From positions 24,639 through 88,638 of the forward strand of contig JAPXKJ010000003.1 in the NCBI GenBank assembly GCA_033810155.1: 64,000 nt of DNA, written 5' to 3'. This document shows, piece by piece, positions 5,866-36,455 of this stretch. This DNA is from Bacillota bacterium. GTDB lineage: Bacteria > Bacillota > Sulfobacillia > Fermentithermobacillales > Fermentithermobacillaceae. Numbering within the stretch: position 1 is the stretch's first letter; the number at the start of each line of letters is the position of its first letter. The notes under the pieces were generated by a model, which was not told the DNA's origin, ran no database searches, and saw only the letters and a program-made list of their open reading frames with translations. Made by a program: the position numbers and the translations under genes.

Positions 5866-6558
5866 TTAAGTACGTTGGTTGGCTAGTTCATCATATTTCA
5901 TTTTGAGACTCTTCATATCATCCAGCATAAGAGGTTTCTTGCCAGCCTCATCCCGCAAAACTGCCGCAGGATGAAATGTAACCAAATACATGATTCCATC
6001 TCTTTCAAACCACTTACCTCTATCTCTCGTAACTCTCAAACCCGGGTCTATGAGAGTTTGACAAGAAAGAGCCCCGAGAAGAACAATTATCCAAGGTTTA
6101 ATCAGGCGAATCTGGGCTGTGAGATTAGGAAGACACGCTTTGACTTCCTCATCAGTCGGCATCCTGTTTCCCGGCGGACGGCACTTGACTATATTCGTTA
6201 TGAAAACATCGCTTCTAGAGAACCCATAACCTTCCAGCATGGAGTCTAGAAGCTGCCCTGCCCGCCCGACAAAAGGCTTCCCTGTGTCGTCCTCTGTTTT
6301 CCCCGGTGCTTCTCCTATGAGCATTATACGTGCTTGGCGGTTGCCTTCACCAAACACCACACCTTTTGCTCCTTGTCTAAGCTGGCACTTTGTACACTGA
6401 AGTACGCGCTCTCTCAAAGCCCCCAAGTCGCCTATATTCGTAGGTTCCTTAGCAGGGGTTGGTTCAACTGCCGAAACTCGTTCCTCTAAGTCGCTGCTTT
6501 CAATCTTATCGGGATAGTCGAAAAGAGGACGTTGAAGCCACTCACTCTTTGTCGTCAA
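5866..6558 (-). CDS. uracil-DNA glycosylase, family 4 (Fe-S type)
   Basis: CTKCQL...GEAPG...HPAAVLR motifs typical of UdgA/family-4 UDG. Confidence 0.8.
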   Translation of the reverse strand: MTTKSEWLQRPLFDYPDKIESSDLEERVSAVEPTPAKEPTNIGDLGALRERVLQCTKCQLRQGAKGVVFGEGNRQARIMLIGEAPGKTEDDTGKPFVGRAGQLLDSMLEGYGFSRSDVFITNIVKCRPPGNRMPTDEEVKACLPNLTAQIRLIKPWIIVLLGALSCQTLIDPGLRVTRDRGKWFERDGIMYLVTFHPAAVLRDEAGKKPLMLDDMKSLKMKYDELANQRT

Positions 6559-7492
6559 CGCGATCCCCTTCTTCTCTATGACTCTGGCTTTCCAGGCTCC
6601 TTATTCTCTCTTCTATGATTTCAGGATATCTTCTGACCAGTTCTAAGTTATCACTTAGGTGCTTTAAATATAGTTCCCCGAATTCAGGACTAATATCTTG
6701 GAGTTTCTCATACATAGCCTTTCCGATTTGTACAGCTGATTCGCAGTCTGGCTGGCAAGGGAAGAAATCCTTTGTAAAGTAAGCAAATTTGTTCACTTCT
6801 TCGGGGCTCTCAGCATGTATTATCTGGTTGGCAGCCCTTACTTCGGGACTCAGAACTGCAGAACCTCTATCGAAGATATACCTATCTATGCAACAGGCAG
6901 GAAAGCTAAGTATGTCTCCGATCTTTCTCAAAAATGCAGGGTTGCTTTCTTCAGGGAACGCTCGCAGTGACACGGGCGCGGAGATATTTGGGTATCGCCA
7001 CGCTTCCCACCTTATATCTTTGCGCATGTCCTGCAACTCTTCCAATTCAACCGATACTGAATCATCCTTAAAAATATACACTTCTCGTATAGTCGGCCGA
7101 GATTCTAATATCCTTTTCTGAAGTCCCAGTCTATCGATCCAGTCCATATACAGGTTGTAGGAAACGGAACTCTCAACTACCTCTGTATAGAGTTCTCTCA
7201 AAAGTTCGGTCTTCATTCGAGCTTCTTTCACTTTGTCATCTCGTCCAAGTCTTCCTGCTTTCTTTTTAACGTAGTTGCTAAAAGACTCCCCGAGACTCTT
7301 CTTGCCTTCTATTTTGTTGCGAAATCGACTATCTATGGTAGCACCAAGAATGGCCGCATCTGGTAATTCAGCAGGTACTATGATCTGTGCAGCCTTACGC
7401 ACATCTAAGACAACGGGCAAGAAGTCGTCAAACTTGCATCCAAGAGGTATTGCAGATTCCTCCATAAACTCCTGCACAATTTGGTATTCCAT
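6542..7492 (-). CDS. conserved hypothetical protein with a Cys-rich motif
   Basis: 316-aa ORF containing PACCIDRY...FFPCQPDC, a possible metal site. No family was recognised by eye. Its stop overlaps the UDG start by 17 nt. Confidence 0.5.
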   Translation of the reverse strand: MEYQIVQEFMEESAIPLGCKFDDFLPVVLDVRKAAQIIVPAELPDAAILGATIDSRFRNKIEGKKSLGESFSNYVKKKAGRLGRDDKVKEARMKTELLRELYTEVVESSVSYNLYMDWIDRLGLQKRILESRPTIREVYIFKDDSVSVELEELQDMRKDIRWEAWRYPNISAPVSLRAFPEESNPAFLRKIGDILSFPACCIDRYIFDRGSAVLSPEVRAANQIIHAESPEEVNKFAYFTKDFFPCQPDCESAVQIGKAMYEKLQDISPEFGELYLKHLSDNLELVRRYPEIIEERIRSLESQSHREEGDRVDDKE

Positions 7493-7763: not shown

Positions 7764-8888
7764 TTAAGCTTCGATTATCTCAACGTTCGCCCTTGGAACA
7801 GTTACTATGGTTCCATCCTCCAGCTTAGCTTTGAGAATTCTGACTTTAGACTCAGACTCAATAACCTGAAGCTCAGGTGGCAATTCGACAACCTCAGCCA
7901 ACAGACCAAAGTAAGGCTCTCTAATAATCCTTATGGCCGTTCCGACAACCAACCCTTGAGCCAAATCCTCCTCAGCGGCCCCTGAGGAGCTTGTCTGATA
8001 TCCTGGGACTATTATCTCAGGTCGCATGACCCCCGCCCTAATCTGTGTAGCGCCATTGATGCAGGCCTTGAGGCCGCTGATTTTTTGGAGAAGAGAAAAA
8101 GTCCTATCTGCCATCCTCATTTGTCCGAAACCTTCGGTGATAATGACAGTAACAGGAACATCCTCGTGACCTGTAATGGCGACTCCAATATCGAATCCCA
8201 GATACTCAATTAAGTCATGGTCTACGATACCACCTACCACAATACCTCGAGCCCCTACCTCGCCCGCCTTTTTGATTGCATCTGCTGTCACGAGCGAGCC
8301 ACCGACCAACACTTTATCTGCATCGTCGCTTTTTATGTGGGAAGCTTCAAGTACATCGCTAGGAGACTCGACTGCCACCCGTACGACCCCATTCGTCTCG
8401 CCGCCTACACCGAAAATTCCCTGTATAAAGGCGCCTTCTGTGACAACAACTACGCCCTCTTTTGGCAACACTTCCTCGACCACGCCTTCGATATAGGCAT
8501 CGACCTCAACGGGAATCGGAGGTTCTCTGAGCGTTACCTGCCCGGTAACCTTCGAGATCATCTCTATTGTGCCCTCTACCGGCGACCTTGCCTCACGCTT
8601 GAAAAGGCCAAAGAAAGAACTATACTGGGCCAGGATCTCTCCTTGGTGAACGTAGTCGCCCTCTTTTTTTTGCATGTATTCCACAACGTCTTCAGCTTCT
8701 ACACCTAGAATATTGGCGATATTAACAGTCTGCGGATTGCCCGGGATACTGGTTCTCGCTACAACTGTGCTAGGCGAAACTTTCTGCCCCTTTTCAACCA
8801 AAACTTCGCCGAGGATAGGAAGGCGCCGGGTCTTTCTAATAACCGCCTTTTCCGTAACTTTTAGCCCTGGTGTATATGCGTGTGCCAT
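7764..8888 (-). CDS. uncharacterised partner protein of the ASKHA ATPase, copy 1; paralog of 11420..12778
   Basis: 374 aa. Its paralog shares the motifs GEVLVE (N-terminal, barrel-sandwich-like), GGS..T.DA..KA.EVGA.G.V.G, ITG.EDVP.TVI.TEGFG, NGATQIRAG and PRANVE. It starts 17 nt after the ATPase stop. Confidence 0.65.
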   Translation of the reverse strand: MAHAYTPGLKVTEKAVIRKTRRLPILGEVLVEKGQKVSPSTVVARTSIPGNPQTVNIANILGVEAEDVVEYMQKKEGDYVHQGEILAQYSSFFGLFKREARSPVEGTIEMISKVTGQVTLREPPIPVEVDAYIEGVVEEVLPKEGVVVVTEGAFIQGIFGVGGETNGVVRVAVESPSDVLEASHIKSDDADKVLVGGSLVTADAIKKAGEVGARGIVVGGIVDHDLIEYLGFDIGVAITGHEDVPVTVIITEGFGQMRMADRTFSLLQKISGLKACINGATQIRAGVMRPEIIVPGYQTSSSGAAEEDLAQGLVVGTAIRIIREPYFGLLAEVVELPPELQVIESESKVRILKAKLEDGTIVTVPRANVEIIEA

Positions 8889-8905
8889 TTACTCCTTCCT
8901 CCCCT

Positions 8906-10816
8906 CTATATGCCTTTGTCCGCATATTTCTTAAGTAGATCTGCCGGATACATATCCATAGCTATAAACCACTCTAACAGCTTCTGACTTCTCAAAGTCG
9001 GATCATCAGGAAGGGCGAGAGGACGTCCACGGCAGTCTATCACTACACCAACTACGCCACCGTTTACCTTGCTTTCAACAACACGCCCGTGCCCCTTACC
9101 TACATCAAACTGCCTTGTAGGATGAATAACCGCATCAACCGTGACGTTTTCTGGAATCTTTATGACTTTCATTGAACCGTAAGGAACAGATTCCTCGATA
9201 GTTTCACCATTATAGTCAATTGTTACTGTAACACATGGCTCCCCAAATTGTAGGTTGCCGCTAGGACCTATGGGAGCAATAGAGGTGCCTAGTTTCACCA
9301 GACAGTCCCTGTCGAAAACTTGCATCGCTGCTTTAGGATGAACGGAAGCAAGAATTCCTAGTTGCGGCATCATGAAAATGGAGTCAACTGCCAGCATGGT
9401 CTCAGCTTCTGGTTGGAACGCATCCAATAGCATCATTGCAGCTTGTGCACGCCTAGGTGCGTGAGAAAGCGTTCCTCCTGATCCAATCAACATGCCCAGA
9501 TCTGCCATGTCGATGTATGTGTCTCCTGAACCCGACTGCTCAAACGTATCGCCGATGGTCCTTTCCTTGTGAACACCCCTCAAGCCTACCGCAAGGCTCT
9601 TGTGGTGAACAAACGCAAGGCGAAGAGCCTCACGGGCAATTCCTTGCTCGAGTATGAGGTCGTCTAGAGTCTGTGGAATCGTAGTAGGACGGATCATTTT
9701 ATTCCTGATCCTATTTCTGAGATCTGCTTCATCGATGGAAAATGGGATCCATCTCGAAATATTAGCCATTCCGGCCTCAAGAAGCACGTTGCAAATCGAA
9801 TAACTCATCCCTAAGTTTGCCGATACGGTTCTATTGAAGAAATCTCCAAACACTGAAAACACGTCAGTAGTAGCTCCTCCGATATCGACGCCTATGACGC
9901 TCATGTCATACTCTTTGGCTGCTGTTTGCATGCAGTTACCCACAGCACCAGGAGTTGGCATTATAGGAACAGCTGTCCAGTTCATAAGCTTATTATATCC
10001 AGGTGCCTGTGCCATAACGTGTTCCATGAAAAGATTGTGGATAGCTTCCCTGGCAGGCCCAAGGACCTCTCTTTCCAAAACAGGTCTTAGGTTATCTACT
10101 ACCCTGAGATCTGTTTTTTCGCTAAGGATCTCTTCAATATGCTTTCTGGCATGTTTATTCCCGGCATAGATTATCGGTAACTTATACCCTATCCCAAGCC
10201 GTGGCTTGGGTTCGGCAGCAGAAATAAGCTCTGCAATCTCAACAACGTGTGTTATTGTACCTCCGTCGATCCCTCCGGAAAGAAGGATCATATCCGGTCT
10301 CAGATGCCGGATTCTTTGGATTTTCTCGTGAGGTTTTCTTCCATCGTCGACTGAAATAACATCCATTACTATTGCGCCTGCTCCAAGCGCGGCTCTCGCT
10401 GCCGATTCTGCGGTCATAGTCTTGACAACGCCAGCTACCATCATCTGCAATCCTCCGCCTGCAGAAGACGTTGACATGAAGATGTCGGCACCTGACCCAT
10501 CTGGTTGCCTAGGAGTAATAACTCCTGTGTCACTCAAAAAACGCCTGCCCGTGAGTTCCTCGATCTCTCTGATGGCGTTTCTCGCACCCATTGTAACATC
10601 TTCAAAAGGTGCCTCTACTGTGGTCGGTGCCTCTCCCCTTACAATAAGGCGATACTCGTCTTCAACCTTCTCGATGAGGATAGCTTTTGTTGTAGTCGAA
10701 CCGCAGTCGGTGGCCAGAACAGTATTGATCTCTGTATCTGGCGTGAACGCAGTTTTTTCTTCCTGCACGAACTCTTCCCCTCCCTCGCTGCCACATGTAG
10801 CGTAAATACCTAACAT
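8906..10816 (-). CDS. ASKHA-fold ATPase, GlmL/MutL-like (glutamate-mutase E2-type family) with a ~170-aa C-terminal extension, copy 1
   Basis: 636 aa. Phosphate-1 motif LATDCGSTTTKAILIE, phosphate-2 VGVDIGGATTDVFS and adenosine motif LIGSGGTLSHAP. The N-terminal DxGST.TK resembles the GlmL family. Confidence 0.65.
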   Translation of the reverse strand: MLGIYATCGSEGGEEFVQEEKTAFTPDTEINTVLATDCGSTTTKAILIEKVEDEYRLIVRGEAPTTVEAPFEDVTMGARNAIREIEELTGRRFLSDTGVITPRQPDGSGADIFMSTSSAGGGLQMMVAGVVKTMTAESAARAALGAGAIVMDVISVDDGRKPHEKIQRIRHLRPDMILLSGGIDGGTITHVVEIAELISAAEPKPRLGIGYKLPIIYAGNKHARKHIEEILSEKTDLRVVDNLRPVLEREVLGPAREAIHNLFMEHVMAQAPGYNKLMNWTAVPIMPTPGAVGNCMQTAAKEYDMSVIGVDIGGATTDVFSVFGDFFNRTVSANLGMSYSICNVLLEAGMANISRWIPFSIDEADLRNRIRNKMIRPTTIPQTLDDLILEQGIAREALRLAFVHHKSLAVGLRGVHKERTIGDTFEQSGSGDTYIDMADLGMLIGSGGTLSHAPRRAQAAMMLLDAFQPEAETMLAVDSIFMMPQLGILASVHPKAAMQVFDRDCLVKLGTSIAPIGPSGNLQFGEPCVTVTIDYNGETIEESVPYGSMKVIKIPENVTVDAVIHPTRQFDVGKGHGRVVESKVNGGVVGVVIDCRGRPLALPDDPTLRSQKLLEWFIAMDMYPADLLKKYADKGI

Positions 10817-10858
10817 ATAAACTACGACATCTGGTCTTTAAATCCTCTTAGTCTTCGA

Positions 10859-11281
10859 CTAATTTTCAATTGTTTCCTCTGGTTTGGATCCGCTACTCTT
10901 ATTGCTATCCATATTCAAGGCTTCATCTATCATGGAACCCTTCTTAGCTCTCCTTAATTGCTTTGATTTCTTCTTGCTTTCCTTTTCCGCTTTGCGTTCA
11001 GCTTCTTCCTCCATGGCTGCAAGTTCAAGGCGCTGAATCAAGAGTTCTACATTATCTCGCTGATCGAAAAAGTAGGCATAGTCTTCGAAAGTCTCAAAAA
11101 ACACGCCAACGATAGGCGCAAAAAAGTGCATGGCCTGTCCTCCAAAATAACTGAGGGGCTTGTTCATCTCGAGAAAGAAGATCGCAGGAACTGTCATTCC
11201 GAACTGCACAATCCGAGCCGCTATAGCTTCTATGATCTCATCCCGTCTAGCTTCGTCAATTGGCTCATGAAATTTCAGCAT
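10859..11281 (-). CDS. small hypothetical protein with a hydrophobic core and a Lys/Glu-rich tail
   Basis: 140-aa ORF between the two module copies. FFAPIVGVFF hydrophobic stretch, then EEEAERKAEKESKKKSKQLRRAKK. Confidence 0.5.
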   Translation of the reverse strand: MLKFHEPIDEARRDEIIEAIAARIVQFGMTVPAIFFLEMNKPLSYFGGQAMHFFAPIVGVFFETFEDYAYFFDQRDNVELLIQRLELAAMEEEAERKAEKESKKKSKQLRRAKKGSMIDEALNMDSNKSSGSKPEETIEN

Positions 11282-11419
11282 CTATGACACCTCCTCCTGG
11301 TTCCGGATAGCTTGTAACCCTCATATTGTACATCACTTTTGGCAAGTTGGCTAATCCAATGTGGCACCGCAATATAGTTGGGAGCTGGCCTAACAAGTAG
11401 GACTCTTTTTTGCGCCATC

Positions 11420-12778
11420 TTACAACATCTCTACATTTGCCCTTGGCACCACAACTTGTTCACCATTTGCAAGTAGTACTTTGACAACTGGCACTTTTGC
11501 TTCGGTCTCTATCATCACAGGCTCTTTTGTGATTTCAGCAATAGTCCCTACCGCACCAAAGTAAGGTTCGTTTACGATCCGTATTTGTGCACCTTGCCTC
11601 AGATCAATATCATACCGCACCGGCTTAGCTAATTCGCCTTCATAACCAAAGAACGAAACGATTATCTCGGGTCTTATGGCTCCCGCTCTGATCTGAGTTG
11701 CACCATTCATAGACGCCGTCATTCCCTCAAGAGCCGCTAGGGTTTCCCATACTTCCCTTCTCATGTCTAGATGCCCGAAGCCTTCCATGAGAATTACGGT
11801 TAGAGGTATATCTTCTTGGCCCGTGATGCCTATTCCGAGTTTTACGCCCAACGACTGAGTGAGATTGAAGTAGTTCGCCGTGCCTGTTACAACTCCTTTG
11901 GCTCCAACCTCTATAGCTTTTGAAAAAGCGTCATTCGTGGCAAAAGAGCCACCGATGATTATCTTGCCTTTGCAGTCATCGGTTATCATGTCAGCTTCTA
12001 GAACTTGGTCCGGTCCATTTGCAAGGACCATGATCTCACCATGAGTCTCACGACCAAGGCCAAAAATACCGTTAAGTTTGATCCCCGGGGTCTCAATGAC
12101 ACATCCACGCGTTTCCATTACTTCTGAAACACGTCCCTCTACATAAGCGTTGACTATGACTTCTCTGAAGGGACGCGAAATGGTGACTTTCCCGGTTTTG
12201 GTATCGATATCAGATATTATTCCGGATACAGGCGCAAGCGCTGTCTTCGTAAAGAAAGCCTGAGCCTCGCCCTTTTTTGCGATCATCTGACCTTTCTTTA
12301 CCTCTTGTCCCACTGTCCTCAGCATGTGTTGCGGTAATTCCTCGGGCTTACACTTTATCTCAAAGGCGACATCGAAGGTGACAGGAGGCTCCTCTTTGCC
12401 AAATTCCTCGCGTATAGTTACCCTTCCAGACCGGTCGGATATCGACTCTATAACGCCATCTGTAGGAGATTCCAGTTCTTTCCTACCATATAGCCCCTGC
12501 TCCGCCCTGGCAAAGACTTCTTTCGTCTTGACCGAATCGCCTATTCCTTTCAACATACTTTTGGAAAGCTGAGCCGGTTCGACTCCCAACAATCTAGCGG
12601 CAGGTATGACCCAGGGAATCCCAGGCTTCATAGCTATTTTGGCTACCGGTGTATCAGGTTTTACTATATCCCCCACTTCAACAAGCACTTCTCCTGGGAG
12701 AGGCAGCTTGCGAGTTTTTCTCACAAGTGCAATCTGGCTTTTAACATTAGTCGGCAAATCTGCTAAAAAGTCCGCCAC
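11420..12778 (-). CDS. uncharacterised partner protein of the ASKHA ATPase, copy 2
   Basis: Paralog of 7764..8888. Start reassigned to GTG at 12778 (AAGGAGGG 7 nt upstream), which aligns with the copy-1 N-terminus. The track's longer ORF to 12847 adds a basic N-terminal tail and a 100-nt overlap. Confidence 0.6.
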   Translation of the reverse strand: MADFLADLPTNVKSQIALVRKTRKLPLPGEVLVEVGDIVKPDTPVAKIAMKPGIPWVIPAARLLGVEPAQLSKSMLKGIGDSVKTKEVFARAEQGLYGRKELESPTDGVIESISDRSGRVTIREEFGKEEPPVTFDVAFEIKCKPEELPQHMLRTVGQEVKKGQMIAKKGEAQAFFTKTALAPVSGIISDIDTKTGKVTISRPFREVIVNAYVEGRVSEVMETRGCVIETPGIKLNGIFGLGRETHGEIMVLANGPDQVLEADMITDDCKGKIIIGGSFATNDAFSKAIEVGAKGVVTGTANYFNLTQSLGVKLGIGITGQEDIPLTVILMEGFGHLDMRREVWETLAALEGMTASMNGATQIRAGAIRPEIIVSFFGYEGELAKPVRYDIDLRQGAQIRIVNEPYFGAVGTIAEITKEPVMIETEAKVPVVKVLLANGEQVVVPRANVEML

Positions 12779-14678
12779 GCTTCTTCCCTCCTTTTCCACC
12801 TTCCGACCTCTTCGCCGGGTACTTTTCTTGCAGCTCACGAATTTCATCCATTGGGTACGCGTTCATACCTTGAATCCAAGATGTGAGCAAATTGATTCGT
12901 TCCACGTTATCTTCGGGCAACTCCAGAGGGCGTCCTCTACCATCTAGGATGACACCGACCAAACCGCCGTGGATCTCTTTCTCCAACGCCTTACCTTTTC
13001 CATCACCTACATCTATGTTCCCACCGTGAGGTTGTATCCTACAGACGGCAGTTTCGCCAACCCCTAACGGTATAACCTGGAGTTCTCCTCCTGTAACCTT
13101 GTGCTCTACTACAGTACCATCTTCCATGGTCATCTTAACCGTAGCTGCCACCTGGCCACGTTTGAACGATCCAACCGGGGCTATTACGGTCCCTAGTCTT
13201 ACAAGACAGTCTTTCTCGAAAACCTCGGCAGATACCTCAGGGTATACCGACGAAAGAACACCAAGATGAGGCATCATGAATATCGAGTCCACAGCTAGAT
13301 AGGTTACCCCTGAAGGCTCAAAAGCATCGATGAGCATCAAAGCAGCCTGTTGTCGTCTCGGAGCATGCGAAAGAGCTCCGCCTGAACCAACTAGCATATC
13401 AAGATGGAGCATGTCTATTATGTCGCGTCCGGTAGCCGATGCTACTTTGCCTCGACCCGTAACCTGAAGTCCCACCTCTTCTTTTTCTACCTTCTTGGCA
13501 AGACTCTTGTGGTGTTCAAAACTAAGGCGAAGCGCTTCCCTGGCAATAGCCTGTTCAACTATTAGGTGGTACATTGTTTGTGGAATTGTAGTAGGTCTTA
13601 TCATCTTATTTGCAACCCAGTCCGAGATGCGAGACTGGTCGACCTCGAAAGGTACCCATCGCAGAATGTTATCGAATCCTGCTTCTTCCAAAACGTTGCA
13701 AATAGAGTAGCTCATACCTAGGTTCGCAGATACCGTCCTGGTGAAAGTGTCCTCGAAGTGTGAAAACACGTCAGTAGTAGCGCCGCCAATGTCTACACCT
13801 ATGATATTCTCATTATTCCTTTCTGCAAGGAGCATAATAAGTTTACCCACTGCACCAGGAGTGGGCATAATCGTCGTATCAACCCATTCCATGAGAGTCC
13901 CGTACCCTGGAGCTTGAGCCATGACGTGATTCATGAAAATCTCATGAATTGCTTCCCTGGCAGGTCCCAAGTTTTCAATATCGTGCCGGGGCCTCAAATT
14001 GTCGACTATGTTCACGTCCATGTCCGCCCCGCATATTTCCATAACAAGGTCTTGGGCGTCTTTATTGCCTGCGTATATTAGTGGCAGTTTGTACGTCGCC
14101 CCAAACCTCGGCTGCGGGTTCGCTTGTTTTATAATCTCGGCAATTGACGCTATATAAGCAACTGAGCCGCCATCTACACCACCTGACATGAGGATAATGT
14201 CAGGCCGCAATTCTGTAATCCTGGTGATCTGCTCCGATTGTGATCTACCGTCATCTACCGAGATTACATCCAACACAACCGCACCTGCACCTAAGGCAGC
14301 ACGGTGAGCTGAACTGGCACTTATTGTCTTTACTAATCCTGCAACCATCATCTGCAATCCTCCACCCGCAGATGATGTCGAAACGTAGATATCTACCCCC
14401 TTGTCACCTTCCTTGGGCCGAATCAAATTGCCTGACTCATCTAGAATTGGCCTATCAATAAGCTCCTCGATGCGCCGAATTGATTTCTTGACCCCAATCA
14501 TGACATCTTCCCATGGTTCCTCAACTGTGGTCGGCATTTCTCCACGAGTTACCAATCGATATTCGTCGCCACGTTTCTCGATAAGTATGGCTTTAGTAGT
14601 GGTCGACCCAACGTCGGTGGCAAGGATAGACTCTACCGGTTTGTTATCAAGGCCTTCCTTTCGCTGGATTTCTTCCAT
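12747..14678 (-). CDS. ASKHA-fold ATPase, GlmL/MutL-like, copy 2
   Basis: 643-aa paralog of 8906..10816 with ILATDVGSTTTKAILIE, GVDIGGATTDVFS and LVGSGGALSHAP. Confidence 0.65.
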   Translation of the reverse strand: MEEIQRKEGLDNKPVESILATDVGSTTTKAILIEKRGDEYRLVTRGEMPTTVEEPWEDVMIGVKKSIRRIEELIDRPILDESGNLIRPKEGDKGVDIYVSTSSAGGGLQMMVAGLVKTISASSAHRAALGAGAVVLDVISVDDGRSQSEQITRITELRPDIILMSGGVDGGSVAYIASIAEIIKQANPQPRFGATYKLPLIYAGNKDAQDLVMEICGADMDVNIVDNLRPRHDIENLGPAREAIHEIFMNHVMAQAPGYGTLMEWVDTTIMPTPGAVGKLIMLLAERNNENIIGVDIGGATTDVFSHFEDTFTRTVSANLGMSYSICNVLEEAGFDNILRWVPFEVDQSRISDWVANKMIRPTTIPQTMYHLIVEQAIAREALRLSFEHHKSLAKKVEKEEVGLQVTGRGKVASATGRDIIDMLHLDMLVGSGGALSHAPRRQQAALMLIDAFEPSGVTYLAVDSIFMMPHLGVLSSVYPEVSAEVFEKDCLVRLGTVIAPVGSFKRGQVAATVKMTMEDGTVVEHKVTGGELQVIPLGVGETAVCRIQPHGGNIDVGDGKGKALEKEIHGGLVGVILDGRGRPLELPEDNVERINLLTSWIQGMNAYPMDEIRELQEKYPAKRSEGGKGGKKRGGLFSRFAD

Positions 14679-14774
14679 CCGATTCCCTCCTCAAAGTCCT
14701 TTGTTCATCCAACAGACAATCTAGACTGGCGCATTCTCTATTGCGCCATAATTCTACTTTCACATTTGCACACA

Positions 14775-15617
14775 TCATTCTTTGGGTTTGATGTTGCGAA
14801 TTCGCTCAATTGCGGCCCGGATCCCTCCTCTTTCCTTCTTCTCTTTTTTGACAAGTTCGTCTTTCTCACTAAACGCCTGTTCAGGCATGGTGAGTTTCGA
14901 GGAAACTATTTCGAGCACCGTGTCTTTGTTTGAACCATCGGGGTAGTAATAGAGAAACATGCCCTGCTTCATTCGTCCCCTCACCGTCCGCGTATCGTGT
15001 GAAAGGAGCACACCGTCGTGGAATTGATAGTAAGTCAAGAACTTATCCCAAGAACGGATATCCCTTGCCAAAAAGGTCCTATACCCAACCGTTTGCTCTG
15101 TAATCACATATTTTACTGGGAACAAGTAAACGGCCAACCTGTTCAAAAGTATAAGTGTCATCACAGCCACGAAGAAAAACTGCGGAAACGCCCAGTAAGC
15201 AAGCCCTATACAACCTGCTACAGATGCTACCACTAGGGTGGAGACGCCCGGACGAAGCGGAAGGAGCCAAACCTTCCACGAGTATAATTCGACATCCTCT
15301 TTTTCTTGTTCGGCTGCTTGGGGGATGCTCTCTCCGGTAATCCCCTTACCTGCGTTGTTCTCAGATTCGCTTCTCGCTTCAGCATCGCCTTTTTTGGGCA
15401 GCGGACCTCTGAGATATGAAGGTCTGCTTGCATCAGGAGTCTGCTTGTCAGTGCCCTTCGACTCATCTTTTGCTTCCGTCATTGTAACCTCCCCAATGAA
15501 CACGTTTGTTGCCACTTGTATCATATGCCCTGGGCATTTCCTACCTGATTCTACGATCCTCGGGAATATCCTGCAACTTGATGATTGCGGTCCGCACAAT
15601 AGCCCAACCATGCTCAA
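14775..15617 (-). CDS. hypothetical membrane protein
   Basis: Two hydrophobic segments (WKVWLLPLRPGVSTLVVASVAGCIGLAYWAF, FFVAVMTLILLNRLAVYLF). ATGA start/stop overlap with the upstream DmpA-like gene. Confidence 0.5.
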   Translation of the reverse strand: MSMVGLLCGPQSSSCRIFPRIVESGRKCPGHMIQVATNVFIGEVTMTEAKDESKGTDKQTPDASRPSYLRGPLPKKGDAEARSESENNAGKGITGESIPQAAEQEKEDVELYSWKVWLLPLRPGVSTLVVASVAGCIGLAYWAFPQFFFVAVMTLILLNRLAVYLFPVKYVITEQTVGYRTFLARDIRSWDKFLTYYQFHDGVLLSHDTRTVRGRMKQGMFLYYYPDGSNKDTVLEIVSSKLTMPEQAFSEKDELVKKEKKERGGIRAAIERIRNIKPKE

Positions 15618-16750
15618 TCGATAACCTGATGCCTTGCCAAGATCTCGAGCACTGTGTCAATAGGTAGACCGAATCTTGTATGCCCATCGCGCCCTACCAT
15701 AGTCTCCGCCATGAACAATGAGTTTAGCACACTCTCTTCAACCGCCTCTACGCAGGCTCTGAACAACAGGCCTAAGTATGGAGAATCATCGCTTATGTAC
15801 CTCTGCTCAGATAATTCTGGGGTATCAGAATCTGACACCTTATTAGCTGTTGAGAAGGCCAATGCAAAATCGCCACTACCATGGGAGAACACAGACCCAG
15901 TGCGAGCTAAGCCACCCTGACAGCGCCGGGCGACCCGCAACAGCTGCCTGTCTGATAAGGGGGCATCTGTTCCCACAATAATTATGATCGAACCTGGAGG
16001 CGTCTGAGATTGCGCTCCAATGGACCTCTTGAGTTCTATTCCTACGGGGATCCCGCAAATCAGCAGATCTTCAAGTCTGCCAAAGTTAGACATCACCAGA
16101 ACACCCAATGTCCATCGTTCATCCATCTCCAATACTCTCGAAGAGGTACCAATCCCCCCCTTGAATCCTAGACACGACATACCGGTCCCTCCGCCGACGT
16201 TGCCTTCATCTACAGGACCATCTGTAGCATGGTAAAGTGCAGAAAAGACGTGTTCCTTCTTTACGTGTCTCCCTCTTATGTCGTTGAGATATCCATCATT
16301 ACATTCCAATACGCATGGATTAACCGTTCCCGCAGATACACCTATCTCCGGGTTACCTTCCAACATGTACTCACAAAGGCTATCCCAAGCCAAACCTACG
16401 CTAAGGGTGTTTGTAAGAATAATAGGTGTTTCTATGGTGCCGAGTTCCTGTATCTGTGCAATGCCTGTAGCCTTACCAAAACCGTTGATTACGTGTATGG
16501 CACCTCTCACTTTGTCTTTAAACAAATTGCCTCCGTGAGGCAAGACCGCAGTAACTCCCGTTCGAACTGGGCCCTTTCCCGGGTCAAGTGGGCCTTCACC
16601 TTCAACTATCGTGCAATGACCTACAAGAACTCCCGGAACATCTGTTATAGAATTCAAAGGACCAGTTGGCAAAACCCCTGTTGATAACTTGCATTCTCGA
16701 AACCTGCGTCGAGAGTACTCGGTAGACCCTACTGAAATGTCATGTCTCAT
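15614..16750 (-). CDS. DmpA/OAT-fold L-aminopeptidase / D-Ala-esterase-amidase (peptidase S58 family)
   Basis: 378 aa with PGVLVGHCT, GTGMS and GSGDFALAFST motifs characteristic of the DmpA family. Confidence 0.7.
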   Translation of the reverse strand: MRHDISVGSTEYSRRRFRECKLSTGVLPTGPLNSITDVPGVLVGHCTIVEGEGPLDPGKGPVRTGVTAVLPHGGNLFKDKVRGAIHVINGFGKATGIAQIQELGTIETPIILTNTLSVGLAWDSLCEYMLEGNPEIGVSAGTVNPCVLECNDGYLNDIRGRHVKKEHVFSALYHATDGPVDEGNVGGGTGMSCLGFKGGIGTSSRVLEMDERWTLGVLVMSNFGRLEDLLICGIPVGIELKRSIGAQSQTPPGSIIIIVGTDAPLSDRQLLRVARRCQGGLARTGSVFSHGSGDFALAFSTANKVSDSDTPELSEQRYISDDSPYLGLLFRACVEAVEESVLNSLFMAETMVGRDGHTRFGLPIDTVLEILARHQVID

Positions 16751-16771
16751 TACTAGCTAATAACCTCCAAA

Positions 16772-17479
16772 TCAACGACTAAACTCTTTTGCAGCTTCGA
16801 CAAATGCCTTAAACGGTTTGATAAACAAAGGATTATGTCTCCACATTCCTTCTGGATGCCACTGAATAAGCAGTACAAATCCTTGTCTAGCTTCCACCAC
16901 TTCTACCACCCCATCAAGGGCTCTACCCGACACGGTCAAACCATCTCCCGGATCCCTAACCGACTGATGGTGATACGAATTAACGACCAGACGGCGGGTT
17001 TCAAAAATGTCTGCCGCCATGGAACCTTCCTCTAGAATTACCTCGTGCGTCCCGTACCATCTCGGGGCATCTTGATTGTGTTTCATTGCTCCCCCAACCT
17101 GGGACGGTATATCCTGCACCAGCGAACCGCCTGCAGCTACGTTAACTACCTGGCATCCTCTGCAAATGCCCAGAATGGGCACCCTGCGTTCAAGAGCCAG
17201 TCTAGCAACGTTAAACTCTAGTTCGTCGAGCCTAGGGTTTATGGAACCAAGTTTCTGATGCGGACGTTCCATATACCTTTGAGGATCTATATCGGCGCCT
17301 CCCGGAAATACTACTCCATCTACCCTCGACACAAGCTCCTCAGCTTCCGATTTGCCTACCATCGGAATCAAAAGAGGTATGCCACCTCCTTCTAGCACTG
17401 CATCAACATAGGTATACTGCAATACCGAAGCCTGTCTTTCTTCATTCCAGCTAGCCGTTATACCAATAATTGGTTTCAA
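16772..17479 (-). CDS. class I glutamine-amidotransferase-like peptidase C26 (gamma-glutamyl-GABA hydrolase PuuD family)
   Basis: GICRGCQ catalytic Cys and a WHPE-type His motif. Confidence 0.75.
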   Translation of the reverse strand: MKPIIGITASWNEERQASVLQYTYVDAVLEGGGIPLLIPMVGKSEAEELVSRVDGVVFPGGADIDPQRYMERPHQKLGSINPRLDELEFNVARLALERRVPILGICRGCQVVNVAAGGSLVQDIPSQVGGAMKHNQDAPRWYGTHEVILEEGSMAADIFETRRLVVNSYHHQSVRDPGDGLTVSGRALDGVVEVVEARQGFVLLIQWHPEGMWRHNPLFIKPFKAFVEAAKEFSR

Positions 17480-17480
17480 C

Positions 17481-18560
17481 TTAAATCCCTTCTTTCAAGA
17501 AAGCATCTACATACGCGAAATTCGCGGGCGCTCCTCCTGTATGGAGAAAAACTATCGCCTCATCTTTATCATATAATCTGTTTCGCACATCGCCTATCAG
17601 ACATGCAAGCGCCTTACCTGTGTAAACCGGGTCGGTGATTATCCCCTCGCTTCGCGCAAGAGTAAGTATGGCTTCTATGCCTTCAGGAGTTGGCACGGCA
17701 TATCCAGGACCAACATAGTCCTCTGTAATGCTTATGTTGGATTTCACATCGTCCTTGGTGATATTAAGAATTCGATCCTTTATTTCACGAAGGTCACACG
17801 AGCCACCCTCCGTTTCGGTCTCGGTATCTAGGCACTCTAACTTTTCTTTTATTAGTCCAATAGCTTCCATTACCAGTTCTAAGACTCTAGCTTCTTTCTT
17901 AGCGGCGCCAGGGCTTACCGCAACTCCCTTAATGGAAAAAGAAAGTTGGTATATGAGTTTGCCAAGCAATAGACCTGCCAAAGTCCCTGACGAACCGGTC
18001 GCAACATACACAGCGCTAGGGGAGACTCCCGCGTCCACAAAATCACGCGCAAGTTCTGCAGCACAACCTATGTAACCTAGAGTTCCTATGCAGTTAGAGC
18101 CGCCTACCGGAATAACATAGGGGTTTTTGCCCTCCCGTTCTAAATCTGCCGCTGTTTCTTCTATTACATCTTCAGAGAGTCTTTGCCCGGTAAAAACTAG
18201 CCGCGCTCCCAAGATATGATCTAACAGTAAGTTCCCCTGCCTAGTACCGGGATCATCACCGTCTAGAACAAGAACCGGCTGCATACCAAGTTTCACAGAA
18301 GCAGCTGCCGTCATCCTAGCATGGTTCGACTGGGGCCCTCCTGATGTAATCACTGTGTCGCATTGTTTCGCAAGCGCGTCTCCAAGAAGAAACTCCAGTT
18401 TCCTTGCCTTGTTTCCGCCTAGAGCAAGCGCAGTAGCGTCATCTCGTTTGATGAATATCTGTGGTCCTCCTAATACCTGGCTGAACCGTGGAGTTCCTTC
18501 AAAAGGAGTGGGCAAATTGGCAAGATGCACCCTTGAGAATCCCAAAGTATTTTTTTGCAT
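17481..18560 (-). CDS. PLP-dependent ACC deaminase / D-cysteine desulfhydrase family enzyme
   Basis: GGNKARKLEFLLGDA signature holding the PLP lysine. The start was moved to ATG at 18560 (GAAGGGGG 8 nt upstream); the track ORF begins at an upstream TTG. Confidence 0.75.
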   Translation of the reverse strand: MQKNTLGFSRVHLANLPTPFEGTPRFSQVLGGPQIFIKRDDATALALGGNKARKLEFLLGDALAKQCDTVITSGGPQSNHARMTAAASVKLGMQPVLVLDGDDPGTRQGNLLLDHILGARLVFTGQRLSEDVIEETAADLEREGKNPYVIPVGGSNCIGTLGYIGCAAELARDFVDAGVSPSAVYVATGSSGTLAGLLLGKLIYQLSFSIKGVAVSPGAAKKEARVLELVMEAIGLIKEKLECLDTETETEGGSCDLREIKDRILNITKDDVKSNISITEDYVGPGYAVPTPEGIEAILTLARSEGIITDPVYTGKALACLIGDVRNRLYDKDEAIVFLHTGGAPANFAYVDAFLKEGI

Positions 18561-18596
18561 GTCAAAACCCCCTTCATACAAGAAATCATGATATAT

Positions 18597-34565: not shown

Positions 34566-36455
34566 TTAGCGGTGAGTATCGAAGTATTCGAGGATGGATG
34601 AAGCGAGTTTTGGACCTATCCCTTTTATTTTAACAAGCTCCTCGTAGGACGCAGATTTCACGGCGTCTACGCTACCAAAAGCCTTCAGAAGATCTTTGGA
34701 TTTTTTAGGACCGAGGCCCGGGATTTGTGACAATTCAGTACCTAGACGTTTTTTATCCCTTATCTTTCGATGGTATGAGAGAGCAAATCTGTGTGCTTCG
34801 TCGCGAATCCTAATAACTAAGAACAAAGCGCCTGAATCTTCCGGAAGCACTACAGGTTGCGACCTGTGAGGCAAAAAAATCTCTTCGTTCCGCTCTGCCA
34901 AACCTGCTATAGGTATATCCAATTTCAGTTCATCCAAAACTTGCTTTGCTGCGCTGACTTGCCCCTTGCCCCCATCGACGATTATTAGGTCGGGAAATAT
35001 CGCAAACTTGCTCTGCCTTCTGGGCATATCACCCTCTTTTTCTAAGGCATCCCTTTCTTTAATTCCCCTCTTGAAACGCCTCCACATCACTTCTTGCATC
35101 ATCGCATAATCATCAGGTTTTCCGTCTACTTTCATGCGAAACCGCCGATACGAAGACTTGTCGGGTTTGCCATCTAGCAATAAGACCATAGATGCGACAG
35201 CTTCCTTACCGGAAGTATTAGATATGTCATAGCATTCTATTCGTTGAGGGGGTTCGGATAGTCCTAAGGCATCTGCCAAATCTCGTAGGGCTTTTATAGT
35301 TTCCTGGGTCTGCCTTTCGTATCTAGGTATGTACGCTTGCATCATAGCTCTTGAGTTGTCGTTAGCCATAGATACTAAGTCTTTCAACACTCCTCTTTTG
35401 GGCACCCTTATTCTCAACCCTGTGTATTTACTGATTTCATCTACATCAGGCAGTGAGACAGGAATCACAACCTCTTTTGGGATAAAAGAAGCATTCGGGT
35501 AGTATTGGCTCACAAATGCGCTTATTATTTCATGGTCTTCATCCAGCTCAGTCCCCGTAAGAACGAATCCTTCCCTGCCCATAAGTTTACCCTCTCTTAC
35601 TGGCAAAAGAGCAACAAAACTAAGCTTCCCCGAACGCGCCAATCCCAAGATGTCTCGATTTTTCATGTCGGGAAGCACGATTTTCTGCTTTTGAGTCACA
35701 TCATCAAGCGCGGAGATTCGATCCCTGATCCTTGCAGCTTCTTCAAAATCGAGGTTCTCAGCGCATCGTTCCATACGTGCAGATAGGGTATCCCTTACAT
35801 CTTTGTGGCGACCTTCCAGGAACTTGATTACACCGTCTATTGTTTCCATGTAGGAATCTCTATCTAAGTTCCCGGTGCAAGGACCCAGACATCTTCCTAT
35901 CTGATAGTCCAAACATGGGCGGGAAGCCTGGGACAAATGCGCGTCTGAACAGGTTCTATAAGGAAAAATCCGGCGCAACAACGAAAGCGTTTCTCTAAGC
36001 GAACCGGCTTTCGTAAACGGCCCGAAGTAGCGCGCTCCATCCTGGTTCATTCTCCTTACTACAGTAACTCTTGGCCACTCTTCCTCTAAGTCGATTCTGA
36101 GGTAAGGATAGTTCTTGTCATCTCGCAACAAGATGTTGTATCGAGGTCGGTATTTTTTTATGAGGTTGCACTCTAAGATTAAAGCTTCCGCTTCCGAATC
36201 TACGATTATCGTTTCGAGGCCGCCTACTCTTTCCATAAGCGCTTCCGTCTTAGCTGACAAGTTCGATGCAAAGTAAGAACGAACCCTGTTCTTGAGATTC
36301 CTAGCTTTGCCAACATACAATACCTCACCCGATTCGTCGCGAAACACATATACCCCTGGAGAAGCAGACAGATCTTTTGTCTTTTCTGCCAAAACTCCAC
36401 GATTACCCCTGATACCGGCCCATATATGTTCCTGCGGGCTAACTTTCACGCTCAT
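34566..36455 (-). CDS. uvrC: excinuclease ABC subunit C
   Basis: GIY-YIG N-terminus (PGVYVFRD...LYVGKA) and C-terminal HhH. Start chosen at Met 36455; the track ORF starts at 36476. Confidence 0.9.

What the first reader, a model, noticed from the sequence alone, without database searches (positions are those of the whole stretch)
7764..12778. Partner proteins form a conserved but unrecognised family
The 374-aa and 475-aa partners share a collinear set of motifs: GEVLVE (in an N-terminal barrel-sandwich/biotinyl-like segment), GGS..T.DA..KA.EVGA.G.V.G, ITG.EDVP.TVI.TEGFG, NGATQIRAG and IR..EPYFG......PRANVE. I cannot map them to any domain I know. Copy 2 apparently starts at GTG 12778 with a strong AAGGAGGG SD that lies inside the upstream ATPase gene, giving a 32-nt overlap. 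That implies translational coupling and probably 1:1 stoichiometry with the ATPase.
Basis: seen in the sequence. Interest (0 to 1): 0.7.

Follow-up and report, generated by a model that had tools for sequence, protein, structure and literature searches.

The report
Unrecognised partner subunit of GlmL-like ATPases
Two paralogous genes encode an undescribed but widely conserved protein that pairs one-to-one with an actin-fold (GlmL/MutL-type) ATPase in many uncultured bacteria and archaea; its function is unknown, and in many lineages the pair sits beside an equally undescribed block of membrane proteins.

Summary
The 374-aa protein (7764-8888, minus strand) and the long copy (11420-12778) are true paralogues: 41% identity over 323 aa, E=2e-76. 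All five motifs are present and collinear in both. The GTG-12778 start with its 32-nt overlap is backed by a conserved Shine-Dalgarno site and start codon in eight related loci.

The family is large: 2,606 clusters at 50% identity, in Bacillota, several bacterial candidate phyla, Planctomycetota, and Bathyarchaeia and Methanomethylicia. It has no Pfam, NCBIfam, PADLOC or PHROG model, no solved relative and no paper. Sources call it 'hypothetical protein'.

- barrel-sandwich hybrid
- small beta domain
- swivelling beta/beta/alpha domain (PEP-utiliser/RraA-like, without the phospho-histidine)
- KOW/SH3-like barrel

Each partner follows a long-form GlmL/MutL ASKHA ATPase. A clade of about 1,000-aa natural ATPase-partner fusions shows that they act together in one polypeptide.

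A small protein (p140) and a 2-TM protein with a possible PH-like domain travel with the pair. In many phyla so does an invariant four-gene membrane block (DUF6754 plus three others), which this window lacks.

Best reading: the partner is an obligate subunit of a two-protein ATP-driven module in an undescribed, probably membrane-associated system. The biochemical role is inferred only.

The parts
7764..8888 (-). Partner B, 374 aa (short form). Approximate domains: barrel-sandwich hybrid at residues 10-125, small beta domain at 126-172, swivelling beta/beta/alpha domain at 188-297, KOW/SH3-like barrel at 313-372.
8016..8135 (-). Most conserved stretch of partner B: E252-G-F-G255 and Q282-I-R-A-G-V-M-R-P-E291 in the swivel domain. 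E252, G253, G255, Q282, R284, A285, G286, R289 and P290 are invariant across 44 diverse homologues.
   Evidence: Alignment A2 and A6. Coordinates. The 231-240 and 281-290 blocks have low pLDDT (60 and 65), both alone and in the fusion model.
8889..8905 (-). 17-nt spacer between the ATPase B stop and the partner B ATG. It holds a purine-rich GGAGG-type ribosome-binding site (AGGGGAGGAAGGAG).
   Evidence: Sequence read.
8906..10816 (-). ATPase B, 636 aa. It is a long-form GlmL/MutL-family ASKHA ATPase with intact DxGSTTTK, DIGGATTD and GSGG motifs, a flavodoxin-like insert, and a ~130-aa beta-rich C-terminal extension that GlmL lacks.
10859..11281 (-). p140, a small conserved protein of the module. 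Motif: VPAIFFLE..KPLSYxGxQ..FF.P ... ExR.N.E.L, followed by a Lys/Glu-rich tail.
   Evidence: Found upstream of the ATPase in bacteria and archaea (27 loci). No family hit. Only 'hypothetical' names, apart from one JGI MreC label.
11420..12778 (-). Partner A, 452 aa from GTG 12778 (long form). Same four domains plus a duplicated ~73-aa barrel-sandwich lobe.
12747..12794 (-). Overlap and translational-coupling region. SD AAGGAGGG at 12793-12786, GTG at 12778-12776 and the ATPase A stop at 12749-12747 give a 32-nt overlap.
   Evidence: Sequence. The same SD and start are conserved in L001, L003, L005, L006, L011, L012, L016 and L030.
12747..14678 (-). ATPase A, 643 aa, the cognate long-form GlmL/MutL-family ATPase of partner A.
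   Evidence: PF13941 E=1e-123. Orthologues at 66-81% always precede a long-form partner.
14775..15617 (-). TM280, a membrane protein with two adjacent TM helices (about residues 121-170) and a C-terminal beta-rich domain that may be PH-like. The true start is probably downstream of the TTG, because homologues are 144-234 aa.
   Evidence: Hydropathy. A homologue gives a weak, sub-threshold bPH_4 hit (E=0.012). Synteny in 18 loci.
6542..7492 (-). DUF483-like Cys-rich protein, 316 aa, immediately downstream. It is a possible accessory component.
   Evidence: PF04467 E=1e-4, below cut-off. Conserved downstream in Bacillota loci and present inside the system in a Bathyarchaeia locus, L063.

Best explanation
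The two 'partner' genes are paralogous members of an undescribed protein family. Its architecture is barrel-sandwich hybrid, small beta domain, swivelling beta/beta/alpha domain, then a KOW/SH3-like barrel.

Each partner is the dedicated subunit of the long-form GlmL/MutL-type ASKHA ATPase encoded just upstream. It is translationally coupled to that ATPase and present in equal amounts. Together they form a two-protein ATP-driven module.

The module belongs to a larger conserved gene set. That set includes a small protein (p140) and a 2-TM protein that may carry a PH-like domain. In many phyla it also includes a four-gene membrane block (DUF6754 plus three others).

Proposed mechanism (inferred). 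ATP binding and hydrolysis open and close the two ASKHA lobes. The partner is held on the ATPase's C-terminal extension. It converts that movement into action on a client through its swivel domain. The invariant loops of that domain (T239-G-x-E242, E252-G-F-G255, Q282-x-R-A-G-x-x-R-P-E291) would form the working site.

The nearest analogue in logic is the B12-dehydratase reactivase, an ASKHA ATPase that also carries a swivelling domain. Here the client is probably membrane-associated rather than a B12 mutase.

Shown: homology, family size, fold composition, gene order, start site, existence of fusions. Inferred: physical complex, stoichiometry, role of the loops, membrane link, biochemical activity.
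For: - Paralogy: E=2e-76.
- Cognate pairing: A-type ATPase orthologues (66-81%) always precede long partners and B-type (54-84%) precede short ones. In 46 of 73 partner-bearing loci the ATPase is immediately upstream.
- Conserved SD and overlapping start, and a 17-nt spacer for pair B.
- Natural ATPase-partner fusions of 974-1,022 aa form a clade of 44 clusters at 90% identity, down to 51% identity to P0150, in Marinimicrobia and Planctomycetota.
- The AF2 model of one fusion has pTM 0.80, against 0.67 for the partner alone. This suggests a defined mutual arrangement.
- ASKHA nucleotide motifs are intact in both ATPases.
- Invariant polar residues cluster in swivel-domain loops. Those loops stay at low confidence in both models, as expected for a site that is ordered by a ligand or another protein.
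- Membrane link: p140 and TM280 homologues flank the pair in Zixibacteria and Eisenbacteria, and p140 also in Bathyarchaeia.
- Genes of the M6(DUF6754)-M5-M7-M4 block lie within the fetched flanks in 19 loci, 18 of them among the 46 loci with an adjacent ATPase-partner pair.
- In the reciprocal scan from DUF6754, the partner, ATPase and p140 rank among the most recurrent neighbour families; only an oligopeptide-type ABC ATPase family is found in more loci (7 against 5, 4 and 4).
- L093 has the window's exact synteny with the membrane block inserted between TM280 and ATPase A.
Against: - No experiment exists on any component.
- The window and its closest relatives (L001-L008) lack the membrane block within the sequence held.
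- Most DUF6754 blocks with 10-kb flanks have no ATPase or partner nearby. The membrane link is therefore frequent but not obligatory.
- In Poribacteria and some WOR-3 loci the partner stands alone among unrelated genes.
- I had no coordinates or PAE for the models. The interface, and the position of the invariant loops relative to the nucleotide site, are not established.
- Peptidase and amino-acid genes recur nearby and fit a soluble metabolic role equally well.
Confidence: 0.6

Rival explanations
1. The pair is an ATP-dependent small-molecule enzyme of the hydantoinase/oxoprolinase type. The ASKHA subunit phosphorylates or activates a substrate, probably an amino-acid or peptide-derived metabolite. 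The partner supplies the substrate-binding or catalytic site through its invariant Glu, Gln and Arg residues.
For: - The ATPases give secondary hits to Hydantoinase_A (E=6e-6, 26.1 bits against a cut-off of 22.9, for ATPase A). GlmL is related to that branch.
- The invariant E252, Q282, R284, R289 and N368 look like an active site.
- Amino-acid and peptide genes recur nearby. These are S58 DmpA, C26 and PALP in Bacillota, M55 DppA and Orn/DAP decarboxylase in Methanomethylicia, and GcvP subunits in Eisenbacteria-type loci.
- Swivelling domains form active sites in RraA-like aldolases and in aconitase X.
Against: - No HyuB-like or other catalytic domain was found.
- The neighbouring metabolic genes differ between phyla, and none is conserved across them.
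- The conserved co-travelling genes are membrane or small hydrophobic proteins.
- The 54-58% identity between bacteria and archaea over the whole length suggests constraint over the whole protein surface rather than at a single pocket.
Confidence: 0.2
2. The pair is a GlmL-type reactivase (chaperone) for a coenzyme-B12-dependent mutase, as the automatic annotations 'glutamate mutase L' and 'methylaspartate mutase' imply. The partner would be an extra adaptor.
For: - PF13941 MutL E=1e-123 to 1e-125.
- Source names.
Against: - Scores are far below the GlmL equivalog cut-off (227 and 235 against 475). They are also below the TIGR01319 subfamily cut-off (159 and 179 against 204).
- None of the neighbours scanned against Pfam in the 164 loci was a B12 mutase or aminomutase subunit. 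Most neighbour families were not scanned.
- No DxHxxG motif is present in the insert (sequence).
- The same insert matches CheY and flavodoxin equally well.
Confidence: 0.08
3. The ATPase is an actin-like filament former and the partner is its membrane or cargo adaptor, giving a cytoskeletal or segregation system.
For: - ASKHA fold.
- A weak PHROG 'partition protein' hit, E=0.0057.
- Membrane proteins in the neighbourhood.
Against: - The closest sequence relatives are GlmL and hydantoinase-type enzymes, not MreB, ParM or FtsA.
- Fusion of the adaptor to the ATPase in a whole clade is unusual for filament systems.
- The large flavodoxin-like insert and the C-terminal beta domain sit where protofilament contacts would be needed. 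This last point is an inference.
Confidence: 0.05
4. The partner is a NusG/Spt5-like transcription factor, as one JGI annotation says.
For: - The C-terminal domain is a KOW-type barrel.
- The profile hit to Thermotoga NusG 2xhc has E=7e-4.
- Pfam KOW scores 23.1 bits against a cut-off of 22.3 in one homologue.
Against: - No NGN domain was detected by any search.
- The gene is consistently paired with, and sometimes fused to, an ATPase.
- The KOW-like barrel is only about 60 of 374 residues.
Confidence: 0.03

Closest known systems
GlmL/MutL family (PF13941, TIGR01319), the presumed accessory or reactivating protein of glutamate mutase. This applies to the upstream ATPases, not the partners.
   Same: Full-length PF13941 match (E about 1e-124), an ASKHA fold and intact nucleotide motifs.
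   Different: About 130-180 residues longer, with a beta-rich C-terminal extension. Scores are below the NCBIfam equivalog and subfamily cut-offs. No B12 mutase was found nearby. A dedicated partner subunit is always present, which GlmL is not known to have.
Diol/glycerol dehydratase reactivase DdrAB/GdrAB
   Different: In DdrA the swivel domain is part of the ATPase chain, and the second subunit is a small flavodoxin-like protein. Here the swivel domain is on a separate four-domain protein with barrel-sandwich and KOW modules. There is no sequence similarity, and no dehydratase genes were found nearby.
Phosphohistidine 'swivel' domain of PEP-utilising enzymes (PF00391: Enzyme I, PPDK, PEP synthase, rifampin phosphotransferase)
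   Different: No histidine sits at the phospho-acceptor position, and that motif is variable across the family. There is no Pfam hit to PF00391. The domain profile gives no significant hit to any solved PEP-utiliser. The invariant residues lie in other loops.
NqrA / RnfC N-terminal barrel-sandwich hybrid domain (PF05896, PF13375), and biotinyl/lipoyl domains
   Different: No conserved biotin or lipoyl lysine. No Complex1_51K, SLBB or Fe-S modules. Everything after the first domain is unrelated.
NusG/Spt5 KOW domain
   Same: The C-terminal ~60 residues form a KOW/SH3-like barrel with the G-x-x-V/I-R-I-x-x-x-P-F-x-G signature.
   Different: No NGN domain. The genomic and fusion context is an ATPase, not the transcription or translation machinery.

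Membership tests
PEP-utilising enzyme mobile (phosphohistidine) domain, PF00391 | Swivelling beta/beta/alpha fold | tested here: met
   [not shown]
PEP-utilising enzyme mobile (phosphohistidine) domain, PF00391 | Conserved phospho-acceptor His in the G-G-x-T-x-H-[STA] motif | tested here: not met
   Both copies read GGSLVTADA and GGSFATNDA, with no His. The position varies (T, S, G, R, D) in alignment A2.
PEP-utilising enzyme mobile (phosphohistidine) domain, PF00391 | Sequence-profile match to the family | tested here: not met
   No PF00391 hit at E<=0.1 for either copy, nor at E<=0.01 among 42 homologues. The domain-only profile against PDB has a best E of 0.34, to unrelated proteins. A true profile-profile (HHpred) test against PF00391 could not be run.
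Biotinyl/lipoyl carrier domain (PF00364) | Barrel-sandwich hybrid fold | tested here: met
   [not shown]
Biotinyl/lipoyl carrier domain (PF00364) | Conserved modifiable Lys at the hairpin tip (A/E-M-K-M type motif) | tested here: not met
   No invariant or nearly invariant Lys anywhere in the N-terminal domain in alignments A1 and A2. The conserved positions there are R21, L23, G27, V31, V37 and G50.
RnfC/NqrA N-terminal domain (PF13375, PF05896) | Pfam score above the gathering threshold | tested here: inconclusive
   Copy A scores 26.5 bits against a cut-off of 25.6. Copy B scores 15.6 bits, below it. 18 of 42 homologues match at E<=0.01.
RnfC/NqrA | Downstream NADH/FMN (Complex1_51K), SLBB and Fe-S modules, or the NqrA Rossmann-like core | tested here: not met
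   [not shown]
NusG/Spt5 | KOW domain | tested here: met
   [not shown]
NusG/Spt5 | N-terminal NGN domain | tested here: not met
   No NGN hit in Pfam or NCBIfam. Only a marginal profile alignment (E=7e-4) reaches the end of the NGN of 2xhc.
GlmL (NF040745) / GlmL family (TIGR01319), for the upstream ATPases | Score above NCBIfam's curated cut-offs | tested here: not met
   227 and 235 bits against 475. 159 and 179 bits against 204. The Pfam domain PF13941 itself is met.
GlmL / B12-mutase accessory proteins | Encoded with the subunits of an AdoCbl-dependent mutase or aminomutase | tested here: not met
   No mutase subunit lies in the window cluster, and none was seen among the neighbours scanned in the 164 related loci. 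Most neighbour families were not scanned.
Dehydratase reactivase DdrAB/GdrAB | Sequence or full-length structural similarity to DdrA plus a DdrB-type small subunit | tested here: not met
   [not shown]
Known anti-phage defence or phage protein families | Match to a PADLOC or PHROG model | tested here: not met
   No PADLOC hit for seven cluster proteins. No PHROG hit apart from one weak ATPase match.

The most novel reading that the evidence does not exclude
The ATPase-partner pair, with p140 and the 2-TM protein, is the cytoplasmic motor or regulator of a previously undescribed membrane machine. That machine is built from the invariant DUF6754-M5-M7-M4 block and is shared by bacteria and archaea. 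If so, it would be the first membrane transport or energy-coupling system driven by an ASKHA-fold ATPase. The partner's swivel domain would act as the mechanical coupler.
Probability: 0.25. Interest if true: 0.85.

Novelty: new variant of a known kind. Interest (0 to 1): 0.62.

Why it matters
- **Scale of the gap.** The family has thousands of members. It keeps 54-58% identity between Bacillota and archaea. It still has no model in Pfam, NCBIfam, PADLOC or PHROGs, no solved relative and no literature.
- **Misannotation.** Its ATPase is routinely labelled 'glutamate mutase L' or 'methylaspartate mutase', which this analysis shows is not justified.
- **A testable system.** Pairing, fusion, conserved start-site overlap and recurring membrane neighbours define a concrete multi-protein system that can be expressed and tested.
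- **Reach.** The carriers are mostly uncultured lineages that dominate anaerobic digesters, sediments and the ocean interior. Working out the function would annotate a conserved gene set in hundreds of such genomes.
- **Possible new role for the fold.** It could show a new way that actin-fold ATPases are used.

Tried and rejected
- **Family libraries.** Pfam, NCBIfam, PADLOC and PHROGs scans of all cluster proteins gave only weak barrel-sandwich hits for the partners, and nothing for p140 or TM280.
- **PDB sequence searches.** I searched with the single protein, the family profile and a swivel-domain-only profile. Nothing was significant except a marginal NusG hit.
- **Literature.** Searches for GlmL, MutL, ASKHA, TIGR01319, DUF6754 and domain combinations found nothing relevant.
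- **AlphaFold database.** Foldseek against afdb50 was not available.
- **p140 homologue search.** It returned only close 'hypothetical' relatives and no informative fusions.
- **PEP-utiliser comparison.** I looked for a PEP-utilising enzyme in the window and in the ORFs of all 164 loci, to build a profile for hhalign. None was present.
- **Membrane-block proteins.** hhalign shows no homology among M4, M5, M6 and M7. They also have no NCBIfam or PDB hits.
- **Neighbours of stand-alone partners** in Poribacteria are unrelated genes.
- **Neighbours of DUF6754 blocks** are heterogeneous.
- **Phospho-carrier idea rejected.** The swivel domain lacks the His, and that motif is not conserved.
- **Biotin/lipoyl carrier rejected.** There is no conserved Lys.
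- **Third copy rejected.** The 636-aa and 374-aa ORFs at 34566-36476 and 42887-44011 have matching lengths but are UvrC and a CtpB-like S41 protease.
Full report
**What is in the sequence.** Between 6.5 and 15.6 kb, every gene lies on the minus strand in one tight cluster.
- TM280: 14775-15617
- ATPase A: 12747-14678, 643 aa
- long partner A: maximal ORF 11420-12847
- p140: 10859-11281
- ATPase B: 8906-10816, 636 aa
- short partner B: 7764-8888, 374 aa
- a DUF483-like protein: 6542-7492

Housekeeping genes follow downstream (UDG, TsaE, TsaB, RimI). The rest of the 64-kb window is ordinary chromosome: UvrABC, SecA, a CtpB-like protease and TsaD. It has no tRNA gene and no Rfam hit. Only two partner copies exist in the window.

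**Checking the observation.** The two partners align at 41% identity over 323 residues (E=2e-76). A second, N-terminal segment aligns at E=1e-14. Two details need correcting. Copy A has EDIP and MEGFG where copy B has EDVP and TEGFG. Three residues, not two, separate IR from EPYFG. The extra length of copy A comes from a tandem duplication of a ~73-residue lobe of the N-terminal domain (E=9e-9). The proteins are therefore homologous over their whole length.

**Start of copy A.** On the minus strand the sequence reads aaaggagggaagaagcGTG.
- GGAGG: 12791-12787
- GTG: 12778-12776
- ATPase A stop: 12749-12747
- overlap: 32 nt

In eight related loci the equivalent position carries the same GGAGGG, a 7-8 nt spacer and a GTG/ATG/TTG codon, followed by Ala-Val/Asp-Ser. 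In most of these loci no in-frame ATG lies upstream. The window's upstream ATG 12847 is not conserved. The 452-aa product then begins M-A-D-F, much like copy B's M-A-H-A-Y. Pair B has a 17-nt purine-rich spacer instead of an overlap.

**Size and spread of the family.**
- The word-index search was saturated at 8,000 hits. All source names but one JGI 'NusG' label read 'hypothetical protein'.
- The exhaustive search found 2,606 clusters at 50% identity with E<=1e-3, and 526 with E<=1e-30.
- The closest relatives (76-78%) are Candidatus Fermentithermobacillaceae/DTU015 Bacillota. This probably places the window's organism in that group.
- At 54-58% identity the family appears in Zixibacteria, WOR-3, Poribacteria, Eisenbacteria, Stahlbacteria, Ignavibacteriaceae, Cloacimonadota and Planctomycetota.
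- It also appears in archaea: Bathyarchaeia, other Thermoproteota and Methanomethylicia.
- Every genome listed is a MAG or another uncultured-source assembly.
- The NCBI names seen are all 'hypothetical protein'.

**Is the family recognised anywhere?**
- Pfam gives only weak barrel-sandwich hits. RnfC_N is just above threshold in copy A and below it in copy B. Across 42 homologues only barrel-sandwich families recur.
- NCBIfam, PADLOC and PHROGs give nothing.
- No solved structure matches by sequence, apart from a marginal hit of the family profile to Thermotoga NusG (E=7e-4).
- Four literature searches found no description.

'Unrecognised' therefore stands for the libraries I could reach.

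- Residues ~126-172: a small beta domain.

- GEVLVE lies in the barrel-sandwich domain.
- GGS..T.DA..KA.EVGA.G.V.G is the first strand-helix-strand of the swivel domain.
- ITG.ED...TEGFG and NGATQIRAG are loops and strands of the same domain.
- IR...EPYFG and PRANVE lie in the KOW-like barrel.

The GGS motif resembles the phosphohistidine motif of PEP-utilising enzymes, but it has no histidine and varies across the family. A profile of the swivel domain alone finds no solved relative. The link to PEP-utilisers is therefore at fold level only.

Across 44 diverse members the invariant residues are R21, G27, G135, G160, G167, E252, G253, G255, Q282, R284, A285, G286, R289, P290 and N368. The conserved blocks 231-240 and 281-290 have the lowest confidence within the folded domains (pLDDT 60 and 65). 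The same holds in the fusion model. I read this as a site that needs a ligand or another protein to become ordered. That is an inference.

**Evidence that partner and ATPase work as one unit.**
1. In 46 of 73 partner-bearing loci, the ATPase is immediately upstream on the same strand.
2. Pairing is cognate. A-type ATPases precede long partners and B-type ATPases precede short ones.
3. The start-site overlap or short spacer is conserved.
4. A clade of 974-1,022-residue proteins fuses the ATPase to the partner in the same order. It comprises 44 clusters at 90% identity, from Marinimicrobia and Planctomycetota, and diverges down to 51% identity to P0150.
5. The AF2 model of one fusion has pTM 0.80, higher than the partner alone at 0.67.

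I had no coordinates or PAE, so the interface itself is not established.

**The wider gene set.** Clustering all ORFs of 84 loci shows that p140 (27 loci) and a TM280-like protein (18 loci) travel with the pair. The TM280-like protein has two TM helices and may carry a PH-like domain (a weak, sub-threshold bPH_4 hit in one homologue). p140 occurs with the pair in both bacteria and archaea, TM280 homologues in bacteria.

Four further families always occur in the order M6-M5-M7-M4.
- M6 is DUF6754 (PF20539, E down to 1e-123).
- M4 and M5 are polytopic membrane proteins.
- M6 and M7 each have an N-terminal TM helix, a ~200-residue soluble part and a C-terminal TM helix.
- None has any other annotation, and they are not homologous to each other.

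Genes of this block lie within the fetched flanks in 19 loci, in Zixibacteria, Eisenbacteria, Bathyarchaeia, a Thermoproteota MAG and some Bacillota. In 18 of them the ATPase-partner pair is adjacent.

In the reciprocal scan from DUF6754, the block's order is invariant and it is often repeated two or three times in tandem. The ATPase, partner or p140 is adjacent in about 9 of about 35 long loci. Only an oligopeptide-type ABC ATPase family is found in more loci (7, against 5, 4 and 4 for partner, ATPase and p140).

Locus L093 is 62-69% identical to the window proteins. It reproduces the window's order exactly, but with the block inserted:
- PALP-C26-S58-TM280-[M6 M5 M7 M4]-ATPase A-long partner-p140 x2-ATPase B-short partner.

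The window has only ~96 nt between TM280 and ATPase A, and no M-block homologue within 64 kb. Its lineage has therefore lost or moved the block.

**Interpretation.**
- Firmly supported: the partners are an uncharacterised, ancient and strongly constrained family. Each is a dedicated subunit of a long-form GlmL-type ATPase.
- Moderately supported: the pair belongs to a larger system that is probably membrane-associated.
- Inferred only: the swivel-domain loops are the working site, and the pair acts like a reactivase-type ATP-driven remodeller.

An ATP-dependent small-molecule enzyme linked to amino-acid or peptide metabolism remains a serious rival. Peptidase, PLP-enzyme and glycine-cleavage genes recur nearby. 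None of them is conserved across phyla.

The automatic label 'glutamate mutase L' is not justified. The scores are below the cut-offs, and none of the neighbours I scanned is a B12 mutase.

**Novelty and score.** The component folds and the ATPase family are known. The four-domain architecture, the obligatory pairing and the associated gene set are not described in any library or paper I could search. I file it as a new variant of a known kind, namely two-subunit ASKHA ATPase modules. There is a 25% chance that it is the motor of a categorically new membrane machine. Interest is 0.62.

Noticed in passing
L009, L019, L027, L029, L047, L056, L057, L062, L063, L078, L093, L098, L140, L141, L157 and others (for example L057:2309-5357 and L093:7387-10700): An invariant four-gene membrane block, M6(DUF6754/PF20539)-M5-M7-M4, is often repeated two or three times in tandem. 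It lies next to the p140-ATPase-partner module in bacteria and archaea. None of the four proteins has any other annotation or a solved relative. The window has no copy within 64 kb.
   Followed up: partly
L093:362-18078 compared with window 7764-18581: A marine-sediment contig with 62-69% identical proteins has the window's exact gene order (PALP, C26, S58, TM280, two ATPase-partner pairs, p140). It also carries the DUF6754 block inserted between TM280 and ATPase A, and two p140 copies. The window lineage therefore appears to have lost or relocated the block at that junction (window about 14679-14774).
   Followed up: partly
window 10859-11281 (-): p140 is a small protein conserved from Bacillota to Bathyarchaeia. 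It has a hydrophobic VPAIFFLE..KPLSYxGxQ..FF.P core and a Lys/Glu-rich tail, and lies upstream of the ATPase in most loci that carry it. It has no family assignment anywhere.
   Followed up: partly
window 14775-15617 (-): TM280 has two adjacent TM helices and a beta-rich C-terminal domain. A homologue gives a weak, sub-threshold bacterial PH-domain hit. The listed TTG start gives 280 aa but homologues are 144-234 aa, so the real start is probably further downstream.
   Followed up: partly
P0150, P0227, P0271-P0313 (not in the window): A whole clade of ~1,000-aa proteins fuses the GlmL-type ATPase to the partner. It comes from Marinimicrobia and Planctomycetota, including Tara Oceans data, and is annotated 'glutamate mutase L'.
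   Followed up: yes
[not shown]
   Followed up: partly
window 6542-7492 (-); L063:4808-5623: A DUF483-like protein with Cys-containing motifs (FPACC, FPCQPDC) follows partner B in Bacillota loci. It also sits between the membrane block and the ATPase in a Bathyarchaeia locus, so it may be an accessory component.
   Followed up: no
window 15614-18581 (-); L077:9190-11317; L053, L058, L059, L062: Amino-acid and peptide genes recur near the module, but they differ by phylum. Bacillota have S58 (DmpA-like) peptidase, a C26 amidotransferase-type hydrolase and a PALP enzyme. Methanomethylicia have M55 D-aminopeptidase and Orn/DAP decarboxylase. Eisenbacteria-type loci have glycine-cleavage P-protein subunits.
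   Followed up: partly
L013, L020-L022, L024-L026, L034-L036, L042-L046, L049 (Poribacteria, WOR-3): In these lineages the partner gene stands alone among unrelated genes: ABC-2 permeases, a PhyH dioxygenase, an ECF sigma factor. No ATPase lies within the fetched flanks (8 kb on each side where the contig allows). Whether an ATPase exists elsewhere in those genomes is unknown.
   Followed up: partly
window 1-64000: GC skew is negative in 29 of the 32 2-kb windows, and 23 of the 28 ORFs of 330 aa or more lie on the minus strand. This is consistent with one replichore of a Bacillota chromosome read against the direction of replication. There is no tRNA gene and no Rfam family in 64 kb.
   Followed up: no
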